Assembly (NCBI GenBank): GCA_016930515.1
Contig: JAFGGO010000063.1
Span: 1 to 30,682, forward strand
DNA from: Promethearchaeota archaeon
Lineage (GTDB): Archaea; Asgardarchaeota; Lokiarchaeia; Sigyniarchaeales; SOKP01
DNA: 30,682 nt
Direction of reading: 5' to 3'
Under the pieces are notes generated by a model, which saw only the letters and a program-made list of their open reading frames with translations, searched no databases and had not been told where the DNA came from. Position numbers and translations under genes: made by a program. How positions within the stretch are numbered: the first letter of the stretch is position 1; every line of letters starts with the position of its first letter. Positions 2,484 through 10,296 of this stretch are shown piece by piece.

Positions 2484-4280
2484 ATGTTCTTCGTACAGGA
2501 AATTCGAGCAAAAATAATATCCATCCTAAAAAATAACGGTTCGGAAATCAATTATAACAATCTACGCTTTAAAATCGCCCAAGTTCTCCCTGATGGCATT
2601 TATATAAGTCAAGGTTATATCGAATTACCTGAAAACAAAAAGAGCGAATTTTTTGAGTTAATACTATCGCGTGATATAAGCTCAAAAAATTCTCCTTTAA
2701 CTGAAAAAACTATCGGTTATGAAAATGTTTTAGCAATCGTGGAATGTGAGACCCATATAAGCTCAATGATCGGAACATTACAAAAATTAGTTAATTTGAA
2801 AAAAATAAGAAATCGGGAAACGGTAATAAGCAAGAAAAAAAATTTATGTAAGGAGTATCCTTCTAAATTCGAATTGAAGAACACCAGTAAACCATATCTC
2901 CTCGTTTATCTCTTTGATAAAGAATATGAGGGGAGAAACAACGAAGCCTCTGTAATGGATCTTTATAATCAGACAAGTAAATTTAAAATGAAAGAACTTC
3001 CAGACGAGATGATTGTAGATGGTAAAGACTTATGGTTCTTGAATCCAGACCTTTTCAAGAAGAAGTTAAATGGATACGAGATCGGTTGGAGTCGACGAGA
3101 AGTATTAAATTGCCCTCAGTCGTGCTATATATGCAATAAAAAAATAATTCGCCAGCATTTTTTTTACGAACAATTGTGCATGAGTTGTGGGGATTTGAAC
3201 TATTTAAAACGCGTTCAAACAGCTGATTTATCTGAAAAGATTGCTTTGGTATCCGGCGCTCGTGTGAAAATCGGATATTATGTTTGTTTACGCTTGCTTC
3301 GGGCAGGAGCTCAAGTAATTGCGTTAACGAGATTTCCACACGATGCGGCTCTGAGATATTTGAGAGAAAAAGACTTTAATGATTGGAAGGATAGGTTGCA
3401 TGTTTACGGATTGGATTTTCGAGACATTGGAAGCGTAAATTTATTCATTCAGTTTTTAAAAAATAAATATTCCTATATAGATATCATTATTAACAACGCT
3501 GCTCAGACCGTCAGGCATCCTCCTATTTATTATAGTCACCTGATGGATAACGAGCGAAAGGCACTTCACGAGCTTCCAGAATCCACTAGGGGGCTCTTAC
3601 AGGGCATAAAAGATTTTTACGAAATTGGCAACCAGAAACTCTTGGAAAGCAATGAAAAATATGACCTCGTTCCTATGATGGTGCCCAAGTTTCAAAAATC
3701 CGCAGAACTATCGCAAATTCCCCTAAGCGAGGAAGATAACTACGAATATGGTGAAACATACCCTAAAGGACAATACGATCAATATGGGGAACAACTCGAT
3801 CTCCGAGATTTTAACTCGTGGGTAATGCGGATGGATGACGTCAGCGTTCCTGAAATATTAGAGGTTCAATTGATCAATCAAGTAGTTCCTACAATGTTTG
3901 TCAGCAAATTAAAAACAATGCTAAAAGCAAGTCCACATCAAGTAAAATATATCGTAAATGTATCTTCTCCAGAAGGGCAATTTCGATTTGATAAAGAAAA
4001 CCGCCACCCTCATACTTGTATGGCAAAAGCAGCACTAAACATGCTTACATTTAGTATCGCAGAAGATTATGCACAGGATAAGATATTCGTTACCTGTGCT
4101 GATCCTGGATGGGTTACCGAACAATTTCCCTTGAAAGGACGGAGCAAGAAAAATCGCAAATTTGCAATCGATTTAGAAGACGCTGCGGCTCGAGTGTGCG
4201 ATCCAATTTTTATGGGGGAAAACGAGCATAAATATTGGCGAGGGTATTTTTTTCGGCACTATAAAAAATCGGACTGGTAA
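2484..4280 (+). CDS. Atypical SDR-family NAD(P)-dependent oxidoreductase with Zn-finger and ~190-aa N-terminal extra domain
   Basis: CYIC...HFFYEQLCMSC Zn motif, Rossmann ALVSGARVKIG, IINNAAQT, IVNVSS, HPHTCMAKAALN (Tyr-less catalytic motif) and ADPGWV. Confidence 0.85.
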   Translation: MFFVQEIRAKIISILKNNGSEINYNNLRFKIAQVLPDGIYISQGYIELPENKKSEFFELILSRDISSKNSPLTEKTIGYENVLAIVECETHISSMIGTLQKLVNLKKIRNRETVISKKKNLCKEYPSKFELKNTSKPYLLVYLFDKEYEGRNNEASVMDLYNQTSKFKMKELPDEMIVDGKDLWFLNPDLFKKKLNGYEIGWSRREVLNCPQSCYICNKKIIRQHFFYEQLCMSCGDLNYLKRVQTADLSEKIALVSGARVKIGYYVCLRLLRAGAQVIALTRFPHDAALRYLREKDFNDWKDRLHVYGLDFRDIGSVNLFIQFLKNKYSYIDIIINNAAQTVRHPPIYYSHLMDNERKALHELPESTRGLLQGIKDFYEIGNQKLLESNEKYDLVPMMVPKFQKSAELSQIPLSEEDNYEYGETYPKGQYDQYGEQLDLRDFNSWVMRMDDVSVPEILEVQLINQVVPTMFVSKLKTMLKASPHQVKYIVNVSSPEGQFRFDKENRHPHTCMAKAALNMLTFSIAEDYAQDKIFVTCADPGWVTEQFPLKGRSKKNRKFAIDLEDAAARVCDPIFMGENEHKYWRGYFFRHYKKSDW

Positions 4281-4301: not shown

Positions 4302-5192
4302 CTACATCCATTTTCCTAAACTCGATTGGTCCATGGCGTCGGGATCCTCTCCAATATTCATGAGTTTTAGCATCACATCCAAGTTCAAGTATCTCTCGGT
4401 TAAACTCTTGATTTTTTCAAATTCACCCCCTCGAATTAATAATTCTCGAATCTTCCCCGAAGCTCGAAATGCGTATCGTACATATTGAAGTGCCGTTTTA
4501 AATCCATATATGAGAAGAAGATCGTGAACTTGAGTTAAAAATAAACCAGGACTGGAAAGACACTCCCATTCTTTCATTAATTTAGTGGAATTATTTGTTA
4601 AGCTATTAGCGTTCGATATCATCTCCTTTAATTTGTTTTTATCAATATTATTTTTTGGATATCGTATTGGGAGATTTAAAAGGCATCTGAAAGGAGTAGA
4701 TATGGTATATAAACGGAAGTAATGTTTTAAAAGACCATATACATAATATCTATTTCTGGTGGTATAACCAATTCCTTCTGTCTTCGAGTATGGGATTCCA
4801 AGGTACTCACGCACTTCCTTATAGTCTGCTAAACTCCCTTTTTCGTGAGAAATTAAAAAGGAATAAGCGGAATAAACCACGATCCCGTATCGAGCGGGAA
4901 GCACATAAACATATCGCAATGGTAAGGTGTTTTCAAGAAGTTCGAGGTCAGTGTAATTATCTAAAGACATGAACCCATTAAGCATCTCTACGATCTCTTC
5001 GGATTGCTGTAATTGTTCCGGGGTTTCGCGATGGATCCACACGCTCTTACTATAAGGGACCTTACTGGGCATGACTCTATGGTCGCCTGCTATTTTGCTT
5101 AAATAATTGAAAGTTAACCCCCATTCTGATTTCCAATGAGGACTTTTGAAGTGATACCTTGATTTTTTATATTTTTGGTGTTGATTTTCCAT
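4302..5192 (-). CDS. Hypothetical protein with C-terminal PIP-box-like motif, directly downstream of the ncRNA array
   Basis: 296-aa ORF, Tyr/Arg/Lys-rich, ending QSSLGKWM (QxxLxxW-hydrophobic). No family confidently recognised. Confidence 0.8.
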   Translation of the reverse strand: MENQHQKYKKSRYHFKSPHWKSEWGLTFNYLSKIAGDHRVMPSKVPYSKSVWIHRETPEQLQQSEEIVEMLNGFMSLDNYTDLELLENTLPLRYVYVLPARYGIVVYSAYSFLISHEKGSLADYKEVREYLGIPYSKTEGIGYTTRNRYYVYGLLKHYFRLYTISTPFRCLLNLPIRYPKNNIDKNKLKEMISNANSLTNNSTKLMKEWECLSSPGLFLTQVHDLLLIYGFKTALQYVRYAFRASGKIRELLIRGGEFEKIKSLTERYLNLDVMLKLMNIGEDPDAMDQSSLGKWM

Positions 5193-5219
5193 TTTTCAAC
5201 GCTTTTTGCGTATTTTTCG

Positions 5220-5330
5220 TTAGGACAGGTTTCAAACATTCGTTTGCGTTTCAAAAATGCTTTTCTTTTGAAACTGGTTTTTTATCATCGTGTTCAAAAA
5301 GAACACTCAAATTTTATGTCCTAATACAGT
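5220..5330 (-). ncRNA. Structured ncRNA unit 1 (proximal; likely also the 5' leader of the 296-aa gene)
   Basis: ACUGUA-[UUAGGACA]-UAAAAU-UUGA-[GUGUUC/GAACAC]-GAU-GAUA-AAAAACCA-[GUUUCAAAAG AAAAGCA UUUUUGAAAC]-G-[CAAAC/GUUUG]-AAACC-[UGUCCUAA]. Confidence 0.75.
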
Positions 5331-5387
5331 TATGAGATTCTAGTATACTTATAATAAAAAATTTATTGATCATAAATTAAAAAAGGG

Positions 5388-5505
5388 TTTAGAACAGGTT
5401 CAGAAAACGCACGTTTTCTTACAAAAAATGTAGTTCTTTTTGTATTGTTTTTCCATCATCGTCCTTTGAAATTTTAAAGAACTCAGTCAATGTGTTCTAA
5501 ACAGT
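5388..5505 (-). ncRNA. Structured ncRNA unit 2
   Basis: ACUG-[UUUAGAACA]-CAUUGA-CUGA-[GUUCUUU/AAAGGAC]-GAU-GAUG-GAAAAACAA-[UACAAAAAG AACUACA UUUUUUGUA]-[AGAAAAC/GUUUUCU]-GAACC-[UGUUCUAAA], followed by CCCUUUUUU. Confidence 0.75.
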
Positions 5506-5579
5506 TTTTACATAATAAGAAAAAAGTATTTAAAAAATTATTTACACTAAATGCCTTTAATATAATAATATAAGAATTA

Positions 5580-5698
5580 TTAGGGCAGGTTTCCGAGTAG
5601 GACTTACTCGGCAGAAAACGTGCCTTTCGGTTTTCTGTTGTTTATTCATCATTGTTCTCATTAAAACGGAAGAACTCAATTTTCGTGCCCTAAACAGT
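5580..5698 (-). ncRNA. Structured ncRNA unit 3
   Basis: ACUGU-[UUAGGGCA]-CGAAAA-UUGA-[GUUCU/AGAAC]-AAU-GAUG-AAUAAACAA-[CAGAAAAC(C)G AAAGGCA CGUUUUCUG]-[CCGAGUA/UACUCGG]-AAACC-[UGCCCUAA]. Confidence 0.75.
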
Positions 5699-5769
5699 TA
5701 CTTAAATTATAAGAAAATTTTAAAGAAAAAGTTTAGTATGAAATTAAAGAGTTTTTTAGAAAAAAGCCT

Positions 5770-5860
5770 TTTAGGACAGGTTAGCAATCAAACTATTACC
5801 CGATAAAATGTATTTTTTTATCGCTATTTTTCCACTCTGTTTTCCAGTATCCTAAACAGT
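5770..5860 (-). ncRNA. Structured ncRNA unit 4 (short variant lacking the kink-turn arm)
   Basis: ACUG-[UUUAGGAUA]-[CUG GAAAA CAG]-AGUGGAAAAAUAG-[CGAUAAAA AAAUACA UUUUAUCG]-[GGUAAU/AUUGCU]-AACC-[UGUCCUAAA], followed by GGCUUUUUU. Confidence 0.7.
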
Positions 5861-5919
5861 AATTAATTAATACATAAATCTAGTTTAAAAATCTTTTAAA
5901 CTCAATTCTAATCTGGACT

Positions 5920-8070
5920 TTAAGATATTTTACTGTTTTTGGTCATTGGAGCAATTATTCCAATTATGGGAATTGTAGGATTTTTTATTAGGAGTGGCAA
6001 TTGATTGCTTGTAATCAAAAACACTAGTGTGTCAGATGTTCGATTAGAAGTAATTGATTGAATGGAAGCACAAATTTTATGTATTAAATTCGTGTCGTAC
6101 CAAGAATCTAATATCTTAATGCGTTTTTTCCTATTACATAATTTCACGATGGTATCGAGTTTACACTTCAAAAACCCTTGGAGGTTGGTTTTGGACGCCT
6201 CGTAAAGGTTGTGAAGAAGGTTATTTTTAGAATCAAAAACCAATCCAGAACCCATGGACACGTCCAAAACACAACCATTTTCCCTTATTCCTGTTATTTT
6301 TTCGTTTAGTGATTTTTGTTCGAACTCAAGAAAATTTCCATAAGGATGCAACTCAAACATCTCCAAGACATTCTTGAGTTTTTTTTTGGGTAGGGGGCGT
6401 GATGATAATGAAAAAAAGCGTTTCAAACCATTTCGTTTGAATGAAATATATAATGAAGTTCTACCTCTTTTCTGTGATTGTAGATAGCTTGAAATTGTTT
6501 CCTTTTTATGTGTTCCTTTTTTAATTGGAAGTTCAAGGTTACAACCGCTCTTTTCAAGATGAATAAGCCATGAAATAATATTTGGTGCTATTTCAAAAGA
6601 GTGTTGATCCTTTAAGTTTAATTCTTGGACGATACAACCCAAATACTTGTTTAAAGCTGGAGATATTTCGCTCGAACGGACGATTCCTTTTGAATATTGT
6701 ACTATTGGTGCGATCCTATTTTTTGGTATCAGTTGGAGCAATTGATTTGTATCTAATTGCATTTGAGTGCAAATTATTTTGCTTAAATCTCTTTCCATCC
6801 TTACTAGAGACAACGCATCAATTGATAAGAGAAGAGTGCCATTAAATTGAATTAATTTTCCTTGATCTTGAATGATGTCATTATCGTGAACATCTTTATT
6901 TATTTTTCTAAGCTCTGCGTGGAATTTAACTCCAATATCTGAATCATTTGCTAAAATACTGATTATGTGAAAAGAACTTCTTGGATTGTGTATTATGAGT
7001 TTTTTTACCCAAACATCGCCGTTTTTTGCTAAAATTTTCAAAACTCCAAAAGGAATATCCTCCTCAAATCGGGCAAGTTTTTGAATATAGCGCTCGTAAG
7101 CGAGTTCGTATGCCTTAAATTCTTCTTTTTTAGAGATTTTTGATAAATTTAAAAGAGCTTGAGAAAAAATGTAAGGATCTTGATCTTTGACGAGAATTTC
7201 TAAGACTTCTTTTTTTATTTGCTTATTAGAAAAGTGGTGAATGACTTGCAATAGACCCCATTTACAATGCTTTTCCCCTTTTTTAGCTAAAATGGGGAAT
7301 ATTTCAGGATTACTTTTTTGGGAATAAGCCGCCATGGTTCGAAATTCTTCTGAATCAAGTATTTTATCAAATTCAAGGAAAGTTTTTATCGTACCGAACA
7401 ATAAATCGTAAATGTCCTTTCCTCCTTTATTATAATAAAGATCATTTAACAATTCTAATCGAGACATGAACCAATCTGGATTACCTGAGTTTGCAAGTTC
7501 ATATAACATCTTCTCAACTATTTCTTTAATTGCCTTAGGAGCAATTTTTGTCAAACAAGCCACGATTTGAGATTGCATGGTAGAATTGAAACCGAATGGA
7601 AGGTTTCTGGGGGTATAATCTGCTGAATAGTAAGATGTGATTAGCATCTTGCTGAGACCCACTTCAGCGATTCCTTCCACATAGGACTTGAGGGCTACAA
7701 AATGCTCCTCTGGAGGCAGGTTGAGAGTTTTTCCTTCTGATGTTTGTACGAATTCTTTTAATAAATCAAACCCACCATTCCGTAGATTCAATGCTTCTTG
7801 AGCAGAGACCGTTCTTATTGCCGTGTGAACGCAAGTAACCTCCACCTCCTCGTTTCCTTTTTTAAATACTATTCTATTATGTGATTTATTATTTACGACA
7901 TTAATGCGAGCTCCAATTTCAACATTAATTAAATCCTTAATTTTATCATTATCTAAAGTGAACCATGCCTCATAGCGATAGCCGTTTTGGAGAGGGATTT
8001 TATCAAGAATAGGGTCAAATTTAAAATATTTCATGTAATAATTGCATTTTTCGGTGTCCTGTATGGTCAT
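5920..8070 (-). CDS. Large hypothetical protein with central HEAT/LRV-like helical repeats
   Basis: 716 aa. Repeats such as IFPILAKK, VLEILVKDQD, VLKILAKNGDVWVK and IISILANDSDIGVK. N- and C-terminal domains unassigned. Confidence 0.8.
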   Translation of the reverse strand: MTIQDTEKCNYYMKYFKFDPILDKIPLQNGYRYEAWFTLDNDKIKDLINVEIGARINVVNNKSHNRIVFKKGNEEVEVTCVHTAIRTVSAQEALNLRNGGFDLLKEFVQTSEGKTLNLPPEEHFVALKSYVEGIAEVGLSKMLITSYYSADYTPRNLPFGFNSTMQSQIVACLTKIAPKAIKEIVEKMLYELANSGNPDWFMSRLELLNDLYYNKGGKDIYDLLFGTIKTFLEFDKILDSEEFRTMAAYSQKSNPEIFPILAKKGEKHCKWGLLQVIHHFSNKQIKKEVLEILVKDQDPYIFSQALLNLSKISKKEEFKAYELAYERYIQKLARFEEDIPFGVLKILAKNGDVWVKKLIIHNPRSSFHIISILANDSDIGVKFHAELRKINKDVHDNDIIQDQGKLIQFNGTLLLSIDALSLVRMERDLSKIICTQMQLDTNQLLQLIPKNRIAPIVQYSKGIVRSSEISPALNKYLGCIVQELNLKDQHSFEIAPNIISWLIHLEKSGCNLELPIKKGTHKKETISSYLQSQKRGRTSLYISFKRNGLKRFFSLSSRPLPKKKLKNVLEMFELHPYGNFLEFEQKSLNEKITGIRENGCVLDVSMGSGLVFDSKNNLLHNLYEASKTNLQGFLKCKLDTIVKLCNRKKRIKILDSWYDTNLIHKICASIQSITSNRTSDTLVFLITSNQLPLLIKNPTIPIIGIIAPMTKNSKIS

Positions 8071-8226: not shown

Positions 8227-9069
8227 ATGACTAGAATCGTACAAATTTGTCCCGTTGGGTTCGAATTTCATAGAATTTTAGAGGGCGTGAGAATACATCC
8301 CTCAAATGTGTTATATCTGCTGAGAAGCTTTAAAAAGGAGGTGAAAAAGGGCGATCCTGATGCTAAATTAATAGAAATTGCAAATAATTATGTGGAAAAA
8401 CTTTATGACCATTTTAAGCAATCAAACACGTTCACGGAGGTTCATGTGAGAGACACTAGAATTATAAGCTACACGGAAGCAATTCGCGAGTTATGCGAGA
8501 TCATTAAAAGAGAGTTAGATATGGGAGATGTAGAAACAATTTATATCAATACATCCACTTCCAATAAATTATTCGTGAGCGTTGCCATGTACGTAGGTTC
8601 TTTTTTTCCTGGTATCATCAAGTTATTTTATTTACGATCTTCTCGCTATACTATCAACCACATTCTTGACGAGGACATGGATAAAGAAGAAATAAAGAAA
8701 ATCTTTACTGAACTTGGAATGACATACAAAAAGGAGGGAGAGACATATCAAAACATCGACATTCCCGTTTATCCAATTCAAATTCTTTCTAATGAAAACC
8801 AAATAATTCTAAAAACGCTTAACGAGATGATCGACGAAGATAATGATTGGATCACCTTTATGAACCTTTTAGCTAGGATGGGGGAGAAAGAAAAGGATAA
8901 GACGATTAAAATGAAATACAGCCATCACATAAAAAAATTAAAGCAACAAATCCTCCTCGAGGAAAAGGTTCACGGAAGACAGAAATCCTATAAGCTAACC
9001 GAAGCTGGAAAGATATTGGGTTTGATTTATTCGTATTTTCACTTGGACAAACCACATGTTTCAAGATGA
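8227..9069 (+). CDS. CARF-like (DUF6293/Csa3-type) plus winged-HTH transcriptional regulator
   Basis: N-terminal IVQICPVGFEFHRI...VLYLL and IYINTSTSNK. C-terminal wHTH HIKKLKQQILLEEKVHGRQKSYKLTEAGK. Confidence 0.75.
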   Translation: MTRIVQICPVGFEFHRILEGVRIHPSNVLYLLRSFKKEVKKGDPDAKLIEIANNYVEKLYDHFKQSNTFTEVHVRDTRIISYTEAIRELCEIIKRELDMGDVETIYINTSTSNKLFVSVAMYVGSFFPGIIKLFYLRSSRYTINHILDEDMDKEEIKKIFTELGMTYKKEGETYQNIDIPVYPIQILSNENQIILKTLNEMIDEDNDWITFMNLLARMGEKEKDKTIKMKYSHHIKKLKQQILLEEKVHGRQKSYKLTEAGKILGLIYSYFHLDKPHVSR

Positions 9070-9081
9070 TCTCTCTTGGCT

Positions 9082-10296
9082 CTATTTAGGATTTATAGAG
9101 GTGATTTGATCGTTAAATTTTATCCTTTCGAGCTTGTTTATCACTCTCATGCCAGTCACGGCGTCTATAGTGTTCGGTAGCTTGAAAATCCTGTGAAGAT
9201 CAAAAGAACCATCTTTAGATCGGAAATTTTCGTTATCAGTGAGTGCAACTCCCTCATCGTCCTTGAGTTTTATTATTAAATTCTGAATTTGTTCAACATC
9301 CAATTCTTTTAAATTCTTCCCTTCCTCTATACAATACACGTGATAACCCTTAAATCCACTATGAATGACTCGAACGCTCCATCCCAAATCTACTAATTTT
9401 TCCGTTAGGATGTCTCTTTTTACAGCAGCTTCCTCTAAACACTTAAGACAAAATCCTTCCTTTCCTATCACATGAGGCTTGTGATCAGAATCTACATCAA
9501 ACGCCGCAATGATTCGAGGTTGTGGATATCCTCTGCCATAATAATCTCGTTGAGGGATCAGCATCGAAGCTAACGAATAATATATTCTTACGGGTAATTG
9601 TCCTTGCCTGAACAAATATAAAATTGATTGTTTTATTTTTGATGTTGGCGTGTGTTTAGCCGTTTTTGTTAACTTGCGTTTTATTCCATACCAGTTTCCA
9701 CTACCAAGAAGAACACGAACATGTCTACTTGGTATAAATGGTTCAAACCAATTGGGTAATTCAAAATCTTCTTCGTAATACTTTAAAACAGTTCCATTAT
9801 CTAAACGAACTTTATATACTTGTATCTTTGGAGGGATTTCCAAATTAGTCTCAAATCTGGGAGCACAAATAACACAAGTCTGTAATCCCAATCGTTTACG
9901 CTTATATTCGTAAAAGTCAATCCATTTTTGAGTGATGGTGGTCTGTTTGAGTTCGATCATCGTCCTTTCAGATTCAACATCAAGACCATCTATTTCTGTA
10001 GATTGGCCGTCTTGGAATTTCATTGGTACCGAATGATAAAATTCCAATCCTAATTCCTTCGATAAAACGGCCAACCCTCTCACTTCGTACCAATAATTTC
10101 GGGTGCGGAGTTTCTTGTTGTCTTGGAATATGACGGCAACGCCGTGTGGAATTTTAAATCTCGCAATTTCGTATGGTAAAGGATCGATTCTGATCCCGTC
10201 GAGATCGTTTATAATATATAATAACAAGGTGTCAAGTTCGTGTTCTTGAATATTTCTTGATATGGTATTTTTACCTTGTTGAATGATGAATTTCAT
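9082..10296 (-). CDS. Fusion of a PD-(D/E)XK nuclease-like domain and an archaeo-eukaryotic primase (PriS-type) domain
   Basis: TEIDG...MIELK nuclease motif. AEP motifs AFDVD, HSGFKGYHVY and DLHRIFKLPNT. H..H..CLKC Zn site after motif I. Confidence 0.8.
   Translation of the reverse strand: MKFIIQQGKNTISRNIQEHELDTLLLYIINDLDGIRIDPLPYEIARFKIPHGVAVIFQDNKKLRTRNYWYEVRGLAVLSKELGLEFYHSVPMKFQDGQSTEIDGLDVESERTMIELKQTTITQKWIDFYEYKRKRLGLQTCVICAPRFETNLEIPPKIQVYKVRLDNGTVLKYYEEDFELPNWFEPFIPSRHVRVLLGSGNWYGIKRKLTKTAKHTPTSKIKQSILYLFRQGQLPVRIYYSLASMLIPQRDYYGRGYPQPRIIAAFDVDSDHKPHVIGKEGFCLKCLEEAAVKRDILTEKLVDLGWSVRVIHSGFKGYHVYCIEEGKNLKELDVEQIQNLIIKLKDDEGVALTDNENFRSKDGSFDLHRIFKLPNTIDAVTGMRVINKLERIKFNDQITSINPK

What the first reader, a model, noticed from the sequence alone, without database searches (positions are those of the whole stretch)
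5283..5679. Box C/D-type kink-turn in units 1-3
Seen: P2 is flanked by UUGA/CUGA/UUGA on the 5' side (box D-like) and by a 3-nt bulge plus GAUR on the 3' side (GAU-GAUA, GAU-GAUG, AAU-GAUG; box C-like). This gives G.A, A.G and U.U pairs plus a fourth pair that covaries U-A / C-G / U.G. Established: this is the k-turn bound by archaeal L7Ae (Snu13 in U4 and C/D RNPs), which can recruit Nop-domain proteins. Inference: the units act as RNA rather than DNA hairpins and likely assemble with L7Ae. They lack the terminal C/D pair of a standard methylation guide. Unit 4 has lost this arm, making it a natural deletion variant.
Basis: partly seen in the sequence, partly recalled or inferred. Interest (0 to 1): 0.75.

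Follow-up and report, generated by a model that had tools for sequence, protein, structure and literature searches.

The report
Kink-turn small RNAs beside orphan gene
The kink-turn is real and conserved: it belongs to an uncatalogued family of small folded RNAs, found in a few archaea that are probably Asgard, always next to one orphan, probably DNA-linked protein gene. The RNAs are not rRNA methylation guides.

Summary
Observation confirmed and extended. The gap 5193-5919 holds four paralogous small-RNA genes of about 95-125 nt on the minus strand. Each has its own TATA-like box about 18-31 nt upstream, and units 2 and 4 end in a U-run.

Each RNA folds as a closing helix P1 around three hairpins. 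In the four units 98% of cells pair and 18 of 32 pairs carry compensatory changes. The G.U pairs work only on the minus strand.

In units 1-3 hairpin P2 is flanked by YUGA on the 5' side and by a 3-nt bulge plus GAUR on the 3' side. That is the geometry of a box C'/D'-type kink-turn, with P2 as the C helix.

I found 16 more members in other archaeal assemblies. Both G.A pairs are invariant in 19 of 19 arm-bearing copies, while P2 covaries. Position 3b.3n is U.U in 17 of 19, which published rules place in the protein-dependent (L7Ae-type) class. Unit 4 lost the arm through a clean 22-nt deletion; its ortholog keeps it.

The claimed covarying fourth pair does not hold: it is a standard pair in 6 of 19. 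The RNAs have no terminal C/D motif, and their rRNA complementarity is no better than that of shuffled sequences.

The RNA always accompanies an orphan ~296-aa protein with no known fold, PIP-box-like tails and UDG or HhH fusions. L7Ae is encoded in the genome. Neither L7Ae binding nor expression was tested. This scan had noted the array on this same window.

The parts
5215..5331 (-). Unit 1 small RNA (5' AACUGUA, P1, k-turn arm P2, P3, P4, P1'). It is nearest the protein gene and has no U-run after it.
   Evidence: Model hits (116 bits with R2). Ortholog is L036:5862-5979.
5384..5506 (-). Unit 2 small RNA
   Evidence: 118 bits. Ortholog is L036:5673-5792.
5575..5699 (-). Unit 3 small RNA
   Evidence: 116 bits. 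Ortholog is L036:5484-5606, with a compensated C-G to U-A change in P1.
5766..5861 (-). Unit 4 small RNA. It lacks the k-turn arm because of a 22-nt deletion with its junction at 5834/5835.
   Evidence: 77.7 bits. Pairwise alignment to the ortholog L036:5294-5415 shows one clean 22-nt gap.
5283..5310 (-). K-turn arm of unit 1: UUGA 5307-5310, P2 hairpin (C helix) 5290-5306, bulge GAU plus GAUA 5283-5289
   Evidence: Sequence, parse.
5454..5486 (-). K-turn arm of unit 2: CUGA 5483-5486, P2 5461-5482 (with a U.G pair possible only on this strand), GAU plus GAUG 5454-5460
5647..5679 (-). K-turn arm of unit 3: UUGA 5676-5679, P2 5654-5675, AAU plus GAUG 5647-5653
5349..5359 (-). TATA-like box of unit 1 (TTTTATTATAA), 18-28 nt upstream of AACUG
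   Evidence: Upstream alignment of 18 family members.
5527..5534 (-). TATA-like box of unit 2 (TTTAAATA), 21-28 nt upstream
5717..5724 (-). TATA-like box of unit 3 (TTTAAAAT), 18-25 nt upstream
5883..5890 (-). TATA-like box of unit 4 (TTTTAAAC), 22-29 nt upstream
5379..5384 (-). U6 run 4 nt after P1 of unit 2 (archaeal terminator-like)
5760..5765 (-). U6 run after P1 of unit 4
4302..5192 (-). Orphan 296-aa protein 'X'. Its gene always accompanies the RNA family. The start codon lies 27 nt after unit 1. The C-terminal QSSLGKWM is PIP-box-like.
   Evidence: No Pfam, NCBIfam, PADLOC or PHROG hit. AF2 model has pLDDT 85 and no PDB fold match.

Best explanation
Each unit is an independently transcribed, trans-acting small RNA of about 95-125 nt read from the minus strand. 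It folds into a four-way junction: P1 closes around hairpins P2, P3 and P4. At the base of P2 a box C'/D'-type kink-turn forms. P2 is the C helix, followed by a 3-nt RAU bulge, then sheared G.A and A.G pairs and a U.U pair that open into the junction.

The k-turn sequence belongs to the class that does not fold in metal ions alone. The most likely reading is therefore that the cell's L7Ae clamps it and fixes the angle of P2. That would give a composite RNA-protein surface.

The RNA would then serve as the RNA subunit or scaffold of a particle with the adjacent orphan protein X. X is probably DNA-linked, given its PIP-box-like tail and its fusions to UDG or HhH domains elsewhere. The RNA is not a 2'-O-methylation guide.

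Shown: the structure, the strand, promoter and terminator signals, conservation of the k-turn, and the RNA-X gene linkage.
Inferred: L7Ae binding, and the RNP with X and its activity.
For: Structure:
- The four units align to one structure with 98.3% of cells paired and 18 of 32 pairs changed on both sides; slid controls give 37-49%.
- With 16 members, 93.8% of cells pair and 23 of 31 pairs are compensated.

Strand:
- About 8 G.U cells would be A.C on the plus strand.
- Plus-strand model scores are at most 12.5 bits, against 37-160 bits on the minus strand.

Transcription units:
- A TATA-like box lies about 18-31 nt upstream of the conserved AACUG in 18 of 18 members, including loci at 58-60% GC.
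- Most members have a U-run after P1.

K-turn:
- Both G.A pairs are invariant in 19 of 19 arm-bearing copies while P2 covaries. 3b.3n is U.U in 17, A.C in 1 and A.A in 1.
- None has 3n=G or 3b=C. PMC4382518 gives that as the rule for ion-induced folding, and says box C/D and U4 k-turns fold only on L7Ae binding.
- L7Ae is present in the genome.

Linkage to X:
- The RNA lies 27-45 nt upstream of X on the same strand in the window and in L034, L035, L037, L038, L039 and L041.
- L036 has 4 copies and L051 has 3.
- It is upstream of X in L053 and L066, and just downstream of X in L056.
- In the class, the three genomes with a full-length X match (G000, G002, G047) were the only ones with an RNA hit in the class-wide searches: 3 of 161 by pattern and 3 of 151 by model R3.

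Not a guide.
Against:
- L7Ae binding is untested.
- Beyond the U.U pair the NC side is not a regular helix. The fourth pair is standard in only 6 of 19 copies, so the element is closer to a k-junction or C'/D' motif than to a simple k-turn.
- Unit 4 has persisted without the arm while keeping its promoter, P1, P3, P4 and U-run. The arm may therefore be dispensable for some role.
- Unit 1 and its ortholog have no U-run before the X start codon, so that copy could also act as an mRNA leader.
- X has no recognisable RNA-binding domain.
Confidence: 0.55

Rival explanations
1. Cis-acting leader or riboswitch-like sensor for gene X. The four-way junction with a k-turn (as in the SAM-I and lysine riboswitches) binds a ligand or protein and controls read-through or translation of X. 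The k-turn is purely architectural.
For: The RNA lies 27-45 nt upstream of X on the same strand in most loci. Unit 1 and its ortholog have no U-run before the start codon. The junction linkers (GGAAAAACAA, AAACC) are conserved. The 5' leader UGY can pair with the inner RCA of P1 as an alternative helix: 97.9% paired, with compensated changes.
Against: Units 2-4 each have their own TATA-like box and are followed by another RNA unit rather than a gene; units 2 and 4 also end in a U-run. In L056 the RNA lies downstream of X. Most single-copy loci have a U-run, and some have a second TATA-like box, between the RNA and the start codon. The 3b.3n U.U is the protein-dependent class, not the self-folding class typical of riboswitch k-turns (PMC4382518).
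Confidence: 0.15
2. The conserved UGA / RAU-GAU element is the docking site of protein X itself, or of another locus-encoded protein, rather than of L7Ae.
For: RNA-X co-occurrence is strict. The motif is the most conserved internal part of the RNA.
Against: The motif matches the L7Ae/box C'/D' consensus position by position. According to PMC4382518, L7Ae binds k-turns in vitro with pM affinity, and L7Ae is present in the genome. It would be hard for such a site to escape L7Ae. X is all-helical with no known RNA-binding fold, though that does not exclude binding.
Confidence: 0.15
3. Atypical box C/D sRNA that guides 2'-O-methylation of rRNA or tRNA, using only a C'/D' motif.
For: The D'-like YUGA and C'-like AUGAUGA/AUGAUAA/AUGAUGG boxes are in the right order and geometry.
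Against: There is no terminal C/D pair. The 12 nt upstream of the D'-like box half overlap P1 and differ between orthologous units. Their longest Watson-Crick match to 16S/23S is 6-9 nt, equal to shuffled controls. The longer matches are G.U-rich runs in one G/U-rich 23S segment. At 95-142 nt with three hairpins, the RNA is unlike C/D sRNAs of about 50-70 nt, a size taken from general knowledge.
Confidence: 0.04
4. DNA-level element: single-stranded DNA hairpins or recombination sites of a mobile cassette. The direct repeat AAC(C)UGY at the 5' edge and inside the 3' arm would be cleavage or crossover sites.
For: Distribution is patchy: 3 of 161 genomes in the class. The leader CUGY tracks the 3'-arm CUGY. 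A TnpB-like ORF lies beside the RNA in L053. A nuclease-primase gene is a conserved neighbour.
Against: G.U pairs are strand-specific. The k-turn motif has meaning only in RNA. Promoter and U-run signals sit at fixed distances. The four units are stably orthologous between two species, at 77% protein identity, in the same synteny.
Confidence: 0.05

Closest known systems
Internal box C'/D' motif of box C/D s(no)RNAs (L7Ae/Snu13-bound k-turn or k-loop)
   Same: The order is D'-like YUGA, then C helix, then a 3-nt bulge ending in U, then GAU(R). It has tandem sheared G.A pairs plus a U.U at 3b.3n, and a C-G pair at position -1. The organism has L7Ae.
   Different: There is no terminal C/D motif and no 10-12-nt guide with rRNA complementarity. 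The C helix is a real 4-9-bp hairpin. The motif sits at a four-way junction in an RNA of about 95-142 nt.
K-turns in archaeal non-guide RNAs bound by L7Ae (RNase P RNA, mRNA leaders; PMC5539422, PMC4245976, PMC6298567)
   Same: A consensus k-turn in an archaeal RNA that is neither rRNA nor a modification guide, and a predicted protein-dependent folding class.
   Different: This is another RNA family with another context: tandem independent genes tied to one orphan protein gene. The k-turn is about 100 nt or more from the start codon, not at the ribosome-binding site.
K-turn-containing multi-helix junction riboswitches (SAM-I, lysine) and the k-junction
   Same: A closing helix P1 around several hairpins, one arm kinked by a k-turn next to the junction, located upstream of a gene.
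   Different: 3b.3n is U.U, whereas ion-folding k-turns have 3n=G or 3b=C. Each tandem copy has its own promoter. One copy lies downstream of the gene. No known aptamer family matches.
Protein-adjacent partner RNAs (IscB/TnpB omega RNAs, retron ncRNA, type III toxin-antitoxin RNA arrays)
   Same: A structured RNA gene is kept directly beside one protein gene across lineages, sometimes in tandem copies upstream of it.
   Different: There is no sequence or fold relation to those proteins or RNAs, and no obvious variable guide segment. The repeats are separate transcription units about 170-190 nt apart, not abutting repeats.

Membership tests
Standard kink-turn (structural motif) | A Watson-Crick C helix, then a 3-nt bulge, then tandem sheared G.A and A.G pairs, with the correct strand polarity | tested here: met
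   Sequence level only. 19 of 19 arm-bearing copies have the P2 helix (4-9 bp, covarying), a 3-nt bulge, GA on both strands and the right polarity. The 3D kink could not be tested.
Standard kink-turn (structural motif) | An NC helix continuing beyond the G.A pairs | tested here: inconclusive
   3b.3n is U.U in 17 of 19. The fourth position is a standard pair in 6 of 19. The NC side opens into the junction, as in C/D motifs and k-junctions.
L7Ae-bound RNA | Physical binding by L7Ae | not testable with these tools
   The L7Ae gene is present (TIGR03677, 136.8 bits against a cut-off of 134.6). The sequence class is predicted to need protein to fold (PMC4382518).
Box C/D sRNA (methylation guide) | Terminal box C (RUGAUGA) and box D (CUGA) brought together by the 5'/3' ends | tested here: not met
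   The ends are AACUGY plus P1 (UUAGGNCA/UGNCCUAA). There is no C or D box there.
Box C/D sRNA (methylation guide) | A 10-12-nt antisense element upstream of D or D' that is complementary to rRNA or tRNA | tested here: not met
   Watson-Crick matches are 6-9 nt, equal to shuffles. Targets were 16S and 23S from two relatives, the organism's own partial 23S, and (in one search, with G.U allowed) 12 of its own tRNAs. Its own 16S is not assembled.
Box C/D sRNA (methylation guide) | An internal C'/D' motif | tested here: met
   YUGA ... AUGAUGA-like boxes with the right geometry.
Archaeal H/ACA sRNA | An ACA box directly 3' of the lower stem on the RNA strand, and a pseudouridylation pocket flanking one upper stem | tested here: not met
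   ACA follows P1 only on the plus strand, which is not the RNA strand. Inside P1 are three hairpins, not a pocket.
Any Rfam 15 family | A covariance-model match at the gathering score | tested here: not met
   No hit in the window at the gathering score. In the permissive search, the hits overlapping the units score at most 18.8 bits, against gathering scores of 40-176 bits.

The most novel reading that the evidence does not exclude
The k-turn RNAs, protein X, the conserved ~404-aa nuclease-primase and the ~600-aa SDR-like protein together form an undescribed RNA-containing system that acts on DNA in Asgard-type archaea. X has a PIP-box-like tail and is elsewhere fused to UDG or HhH domains. 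In this reading an L7Ae-clamped small RNA nucleates or directs a PCNA-tethered complex, for repair, defence or a mobile element's replication. The tandem paralogs would give several RNA specificities.
Probability: 0.2. Interest if true: 0.85.

Novelty: new variant of a known kind. Interest (0 to 1): 0.62.

Why it matters
K-turns bound by L7Ae/Snu13 are the nucleation point of the C/D, H/ACA and U4 particles shared by archaea and eukaryotes. Here the same C'/D'-type module sits in a different, uncatalogued RNA in what is probably the Asgard lineage. It lacks guide features and is genetically tied to an orphan protein with PCNA-binding-like tails and DNA-repair domain fusions.

If L7Ae does bind, this would be a new class of L7Ae-dependent RNP outside RNA modification. 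It would come with a natural arm-deletion variant (unit 4) and 20 sequence variants ready for binding tests. Even on the minimal reading, it adds a well-supported new RNA family and a strictly linked RNA-protein pair to annotate.

Tried and rejected
- Rfam, gathering and permissive searches: nothing credible.
- tRNA/tmRNA scan: none.
- BLASTN of the array against 60 relatives: only AT-rich noise and chance hits in coding sequence.
- Exact-pattern scan of the organism's own genome: no further copies. Model R2 on the same genome: only the four units.
- rRNA guide test with G.U allowed gave 9-12-nt runs. These fell in one G/U-rich 23S segment and were dropped after the Watson-Crick-only test.
- A strict canonical C-D'-C'-D descriptor found 0 hits in the genome. 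It was probably too strict and is not informative.
- Protein X: no Pfam, NCBIfam, PADLOC or PHROG hit. PDB profile search found nothing. The first AF2 model was poor (pLDDT 49). The second was good (pLDDT 85) but had no fold match: Foldseek PDB E>0.3, VIA-align best Z 5.0 to designed helical proteins, ESM Atlas by structure TM at most 0.37, and the ESM Atlas feature search gave no usable hit.
- The genome contigs and metagenome-contig scans only re-found the G047 and G002 loci.
- H/ACA reading (ACA after P1 on the plus strand): rejected because the strand is wrong and there is no pocket.
- Type III toxin-antitoxin reading: rejected because the units are separate promoter-driven genes and most loci have one copy.
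- Literature searches found no description of this RNA or of protein X.

Full report
**What is there.** The 727-bp gap between two minus-strand genes (4302-5192 and 5920-8070) holds four related units. A covariance model built from unit 2 alone found the other three on the minus strand at 64, 70 and 37 bits. The next best hit anywhere in the window scored 12.5 bits. The units are 5215-5331, 5384-5506, 5575-5699 and 5766-5861.

Aligned to one structure, they form a closing helix P1 (UUAGGNCA/UGNCCUAA) around hairpins P2, P3 and P4. 98.3% of cells pair and 18 of 32 pairs are changed on both sides. Slid controls give 37-49% pairing. About eight G.U cells would be A.C mismatches on the plus strand, so the folded molecule is the minus-strand transcript.

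**The k-turn.** In units 1-3, P2 is preceded by UUGA, CUGA or UUGA. The polarity is right for a k-turn whose C helix is P2. On the 3' strand the order is C helix, 3-nt bulge, G(1b), A(2b), U(3b). On the 5' strand it is U(3n), G(2n), A(1n), C helix. This is the arrangement of the internal C'/D' motif of box C/D RNAs, with a real hairpin between the boxes. A loose descriptor of the motif occurs 36 times in the genome and 22 times in a reversed control. Its presence at the homologous site of three of four paralogs is therefore not chance.

**Homologs.** BLASTN found none. Models R2 and R3 and a k-turn-free pattern found members in a congener (G002) and in another family of the order (G047).

Searching for relatives of the adjacent protein and fetching their contigs gave the rest:
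- L036, a syntenic relative, has four orthologous units.
- L051 has three copies.
- L037, L038, L039, L041, L053, L056 and L066 have one each.
- Locus GC ranges from 30% to 60%.

That makes 20 members, of which 19 carry the arm. In all 19 both GA dinucleotides are kept. P2 starts G-C, U-A in every arm-bearing copy aligned (15 of 15 in A11), and the rest of P2 covaries: GUGUUC/GAACAC, GUCCC/GGGAC, GUGUCGGG/CCCGGCAC and others. The bulge is RAU in 18 of 19 (GAC in one), and 3b.3n is U.U in 17.

The fourth pair is not conserved as a pair. It is a standard pair in 6 of 19 and U.U in 7.

Unit 4's ortholog in L036 has a complete arm, and a pairwise alignment shows a single 22-nt deletion in unit 4. 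So unit 4 is indeed a natural deletion variant. Its D'-like box has since decayed from UUGA to CAGA.

**Separate RNA genes.** Aligning the flanks of 18 members shows a TATA-like box (TTTAAATA or TTTTTAA type) about 18-31 nt upstream of the conserved 5' AACUG, even at 58-60% GC. Most members have a run of 4-10 U directly after P1 (L041). Unit 1 and its ortholog, the copies next to the gene, lack the U-run and may also be read through into the mRNA.

**Not a methylation guide.** There is no terminal C/D pair. The 12 nt upstream of the D'-like box half overlap P1 and differ between orthologous units. Their longest Watson-Crick match is 6-9 nt, no better than shuffled sequences. The targets were 16S and 23S of two relatives plus the organism's own partial 23S. 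Longer matches seen when G.U was allowed fell in one G/U-rich 23S stretch. Caveat: the organism's own 16S is not assembled.

**L7Ae.** The genome encodes L7Ae (TIGR03677, above cut-off) and L30e. PMC4382518 reports that k-turns fold in metal ions alone only if 3n=G or 3b=C. It also reports that box C/D and U4 k-turns need L7Ae-type protein to fold, and that L7Ae binds k-turns in vitro with pM affinity. None of the 19 copies has 3n=G or 3b=C. This favours a protein-bound k-turn over a self-folding architectural one.

**Context.** The RNA always accompanies one orphan protein family, X (window 4302-5192). It is usually 27-45 nt upstream on the same strand, and once just downstream.
- Across the class, only G000, G002 and G047 gave RNA hits: 3 of 161 genomes by pattern and 3 of 151 by model R3.
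- The same three are the only genomes with a full-length X match.
- Two more genomes (G057, G058) hold a distant, longer X-like gene. One of them has a divergent RNA upstream, found by direct scoring of that locus.

X forms 18 clusters at 50% identity among 1.8 billion representatives. It has no family or fold match, although the model is confident (pLDDT 85). Several members end in Qxx[LIV]xxW[MILF], which is PIP-box-like. X also occurs fused to UDG, HhH, LRR or zinc-ribbon domains.

Recurrent neighbours are:
- a ~404-aa protein with weak PriS-type primase matches;
- a ~600-aa SDR-like protein;
- in the window, a CARF3-wHTH regulator.

This points to DNA-linked biology, but the function is unknown.

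**Organism.** It is archaeal, with L7Ae and L30e, 33% GC and about 4 Mb. Relatives include single-contig genomes of 4.4 and 6.0 Mb. A sub-threshold profilin match is absent from all 14 control genomes. It is probably an Asgard (Lokiarchaeia-like) MAG. This is inference, and no name was available.

**Verdict.** The covarying fourth pair and any guide role are not supported. The wider object is an undescribed small-RNA family strictly linked to an orphan protein. No Rfam family or paper in the held library describes it. Earlier notes of this scan on this same window had flagged the array, its promoters and the PIP-box.

Noticed in passing
window 5215-5861 (-) and all family loci (alignment A11, columns 4-6 against 13-15): The 5' leader UGY can pair with RCA, the inner three bases of the P1 5' strand. 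97.9% of cells pair, and compensated G-C to A-U and C-G to U-A changes occur in separate lineages. This pairing excludes the inner three pairs of P1. Equivalently, the leader AACUGY is a direct repeat of the 3' AACCUGY. It could be an alternative fold, a switch, or a shared recognition site.
   Followed up: partly
window 4302-5192 (-); alignment A8: Several members of the orphan protein X family end in a PIP-box-like tail: QSSLGKWM, QSNLGKWI, QSSIEDWF, QTNVDDWL. Elsewhere X is fused to UDG (P0011), HhH_5 (P0006), LRR (P0009) or a zinc ribbon (P0019). The AF2 model is confident and all-helical, with no PDB match.
   Followed up: partly
window 9082-10296 (-), 2484-4280 (+), 5920-8070 (-), 8227-9069 (+): X has recurrent neighbours in other genomes: a ~404-aa protein with weak PriS-primase matches (also in L036, L039, L051, L052, L053, L056) and a ~600-aa SDR-like protein (L036, L051, L053). 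The window also has a CARF3-wHTH regulator and an orphan 716-aa protein. Together they may form one multi-gene module.
   Followed up: partly
G000:C101:20692-20922 (+) (L065): A second X-like fragment in the same genome covers only the N-terminal ~85 residues and has in-frame TAG and TAA stops. No RNA unit was detected beside it (best 11 bits). It is probably a decayed copy.
   Followed up: partly
L040:130-160: Upstream of an N-terminally truncated X homolog, only a bare P1-like hairpin remains (UUAGCAG-UGAC-CUGCUAA, keeping the ACCUGCUAA 3' motif). It looks like a unit whose whole interior was deleted.
   Followed up: no
L053:1868-2401: A 177-aa ORF with a Cas12f1-like_TNB (TnpB-type) domain sits between the RNA (1652-1793) and an X-UDG fusion gene.
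   Followed up: no
window 5258-5815 (-), P3 loops: The 7-nt P3 loop fits AA-NNN-CA in units 1, 2 and 4. The central triplet is not kept between orthologous units of the window and L036 (AAAAGCA/AAGAGCA, AACUACA/AAAUACA, AAAUACA/AAAUGCG), and P3 is missing from the single-copy members. It is therefore unlikely to be a fixed code.
   Followed up: partly
G000 assembly: No 16S rRNA was found, and only a partial 23S (C72:828-1639). ARAGORN parsing gave only 12 tRNAs. The assembly is weak in RNA genes, which limits target searches.
   Followed up: no
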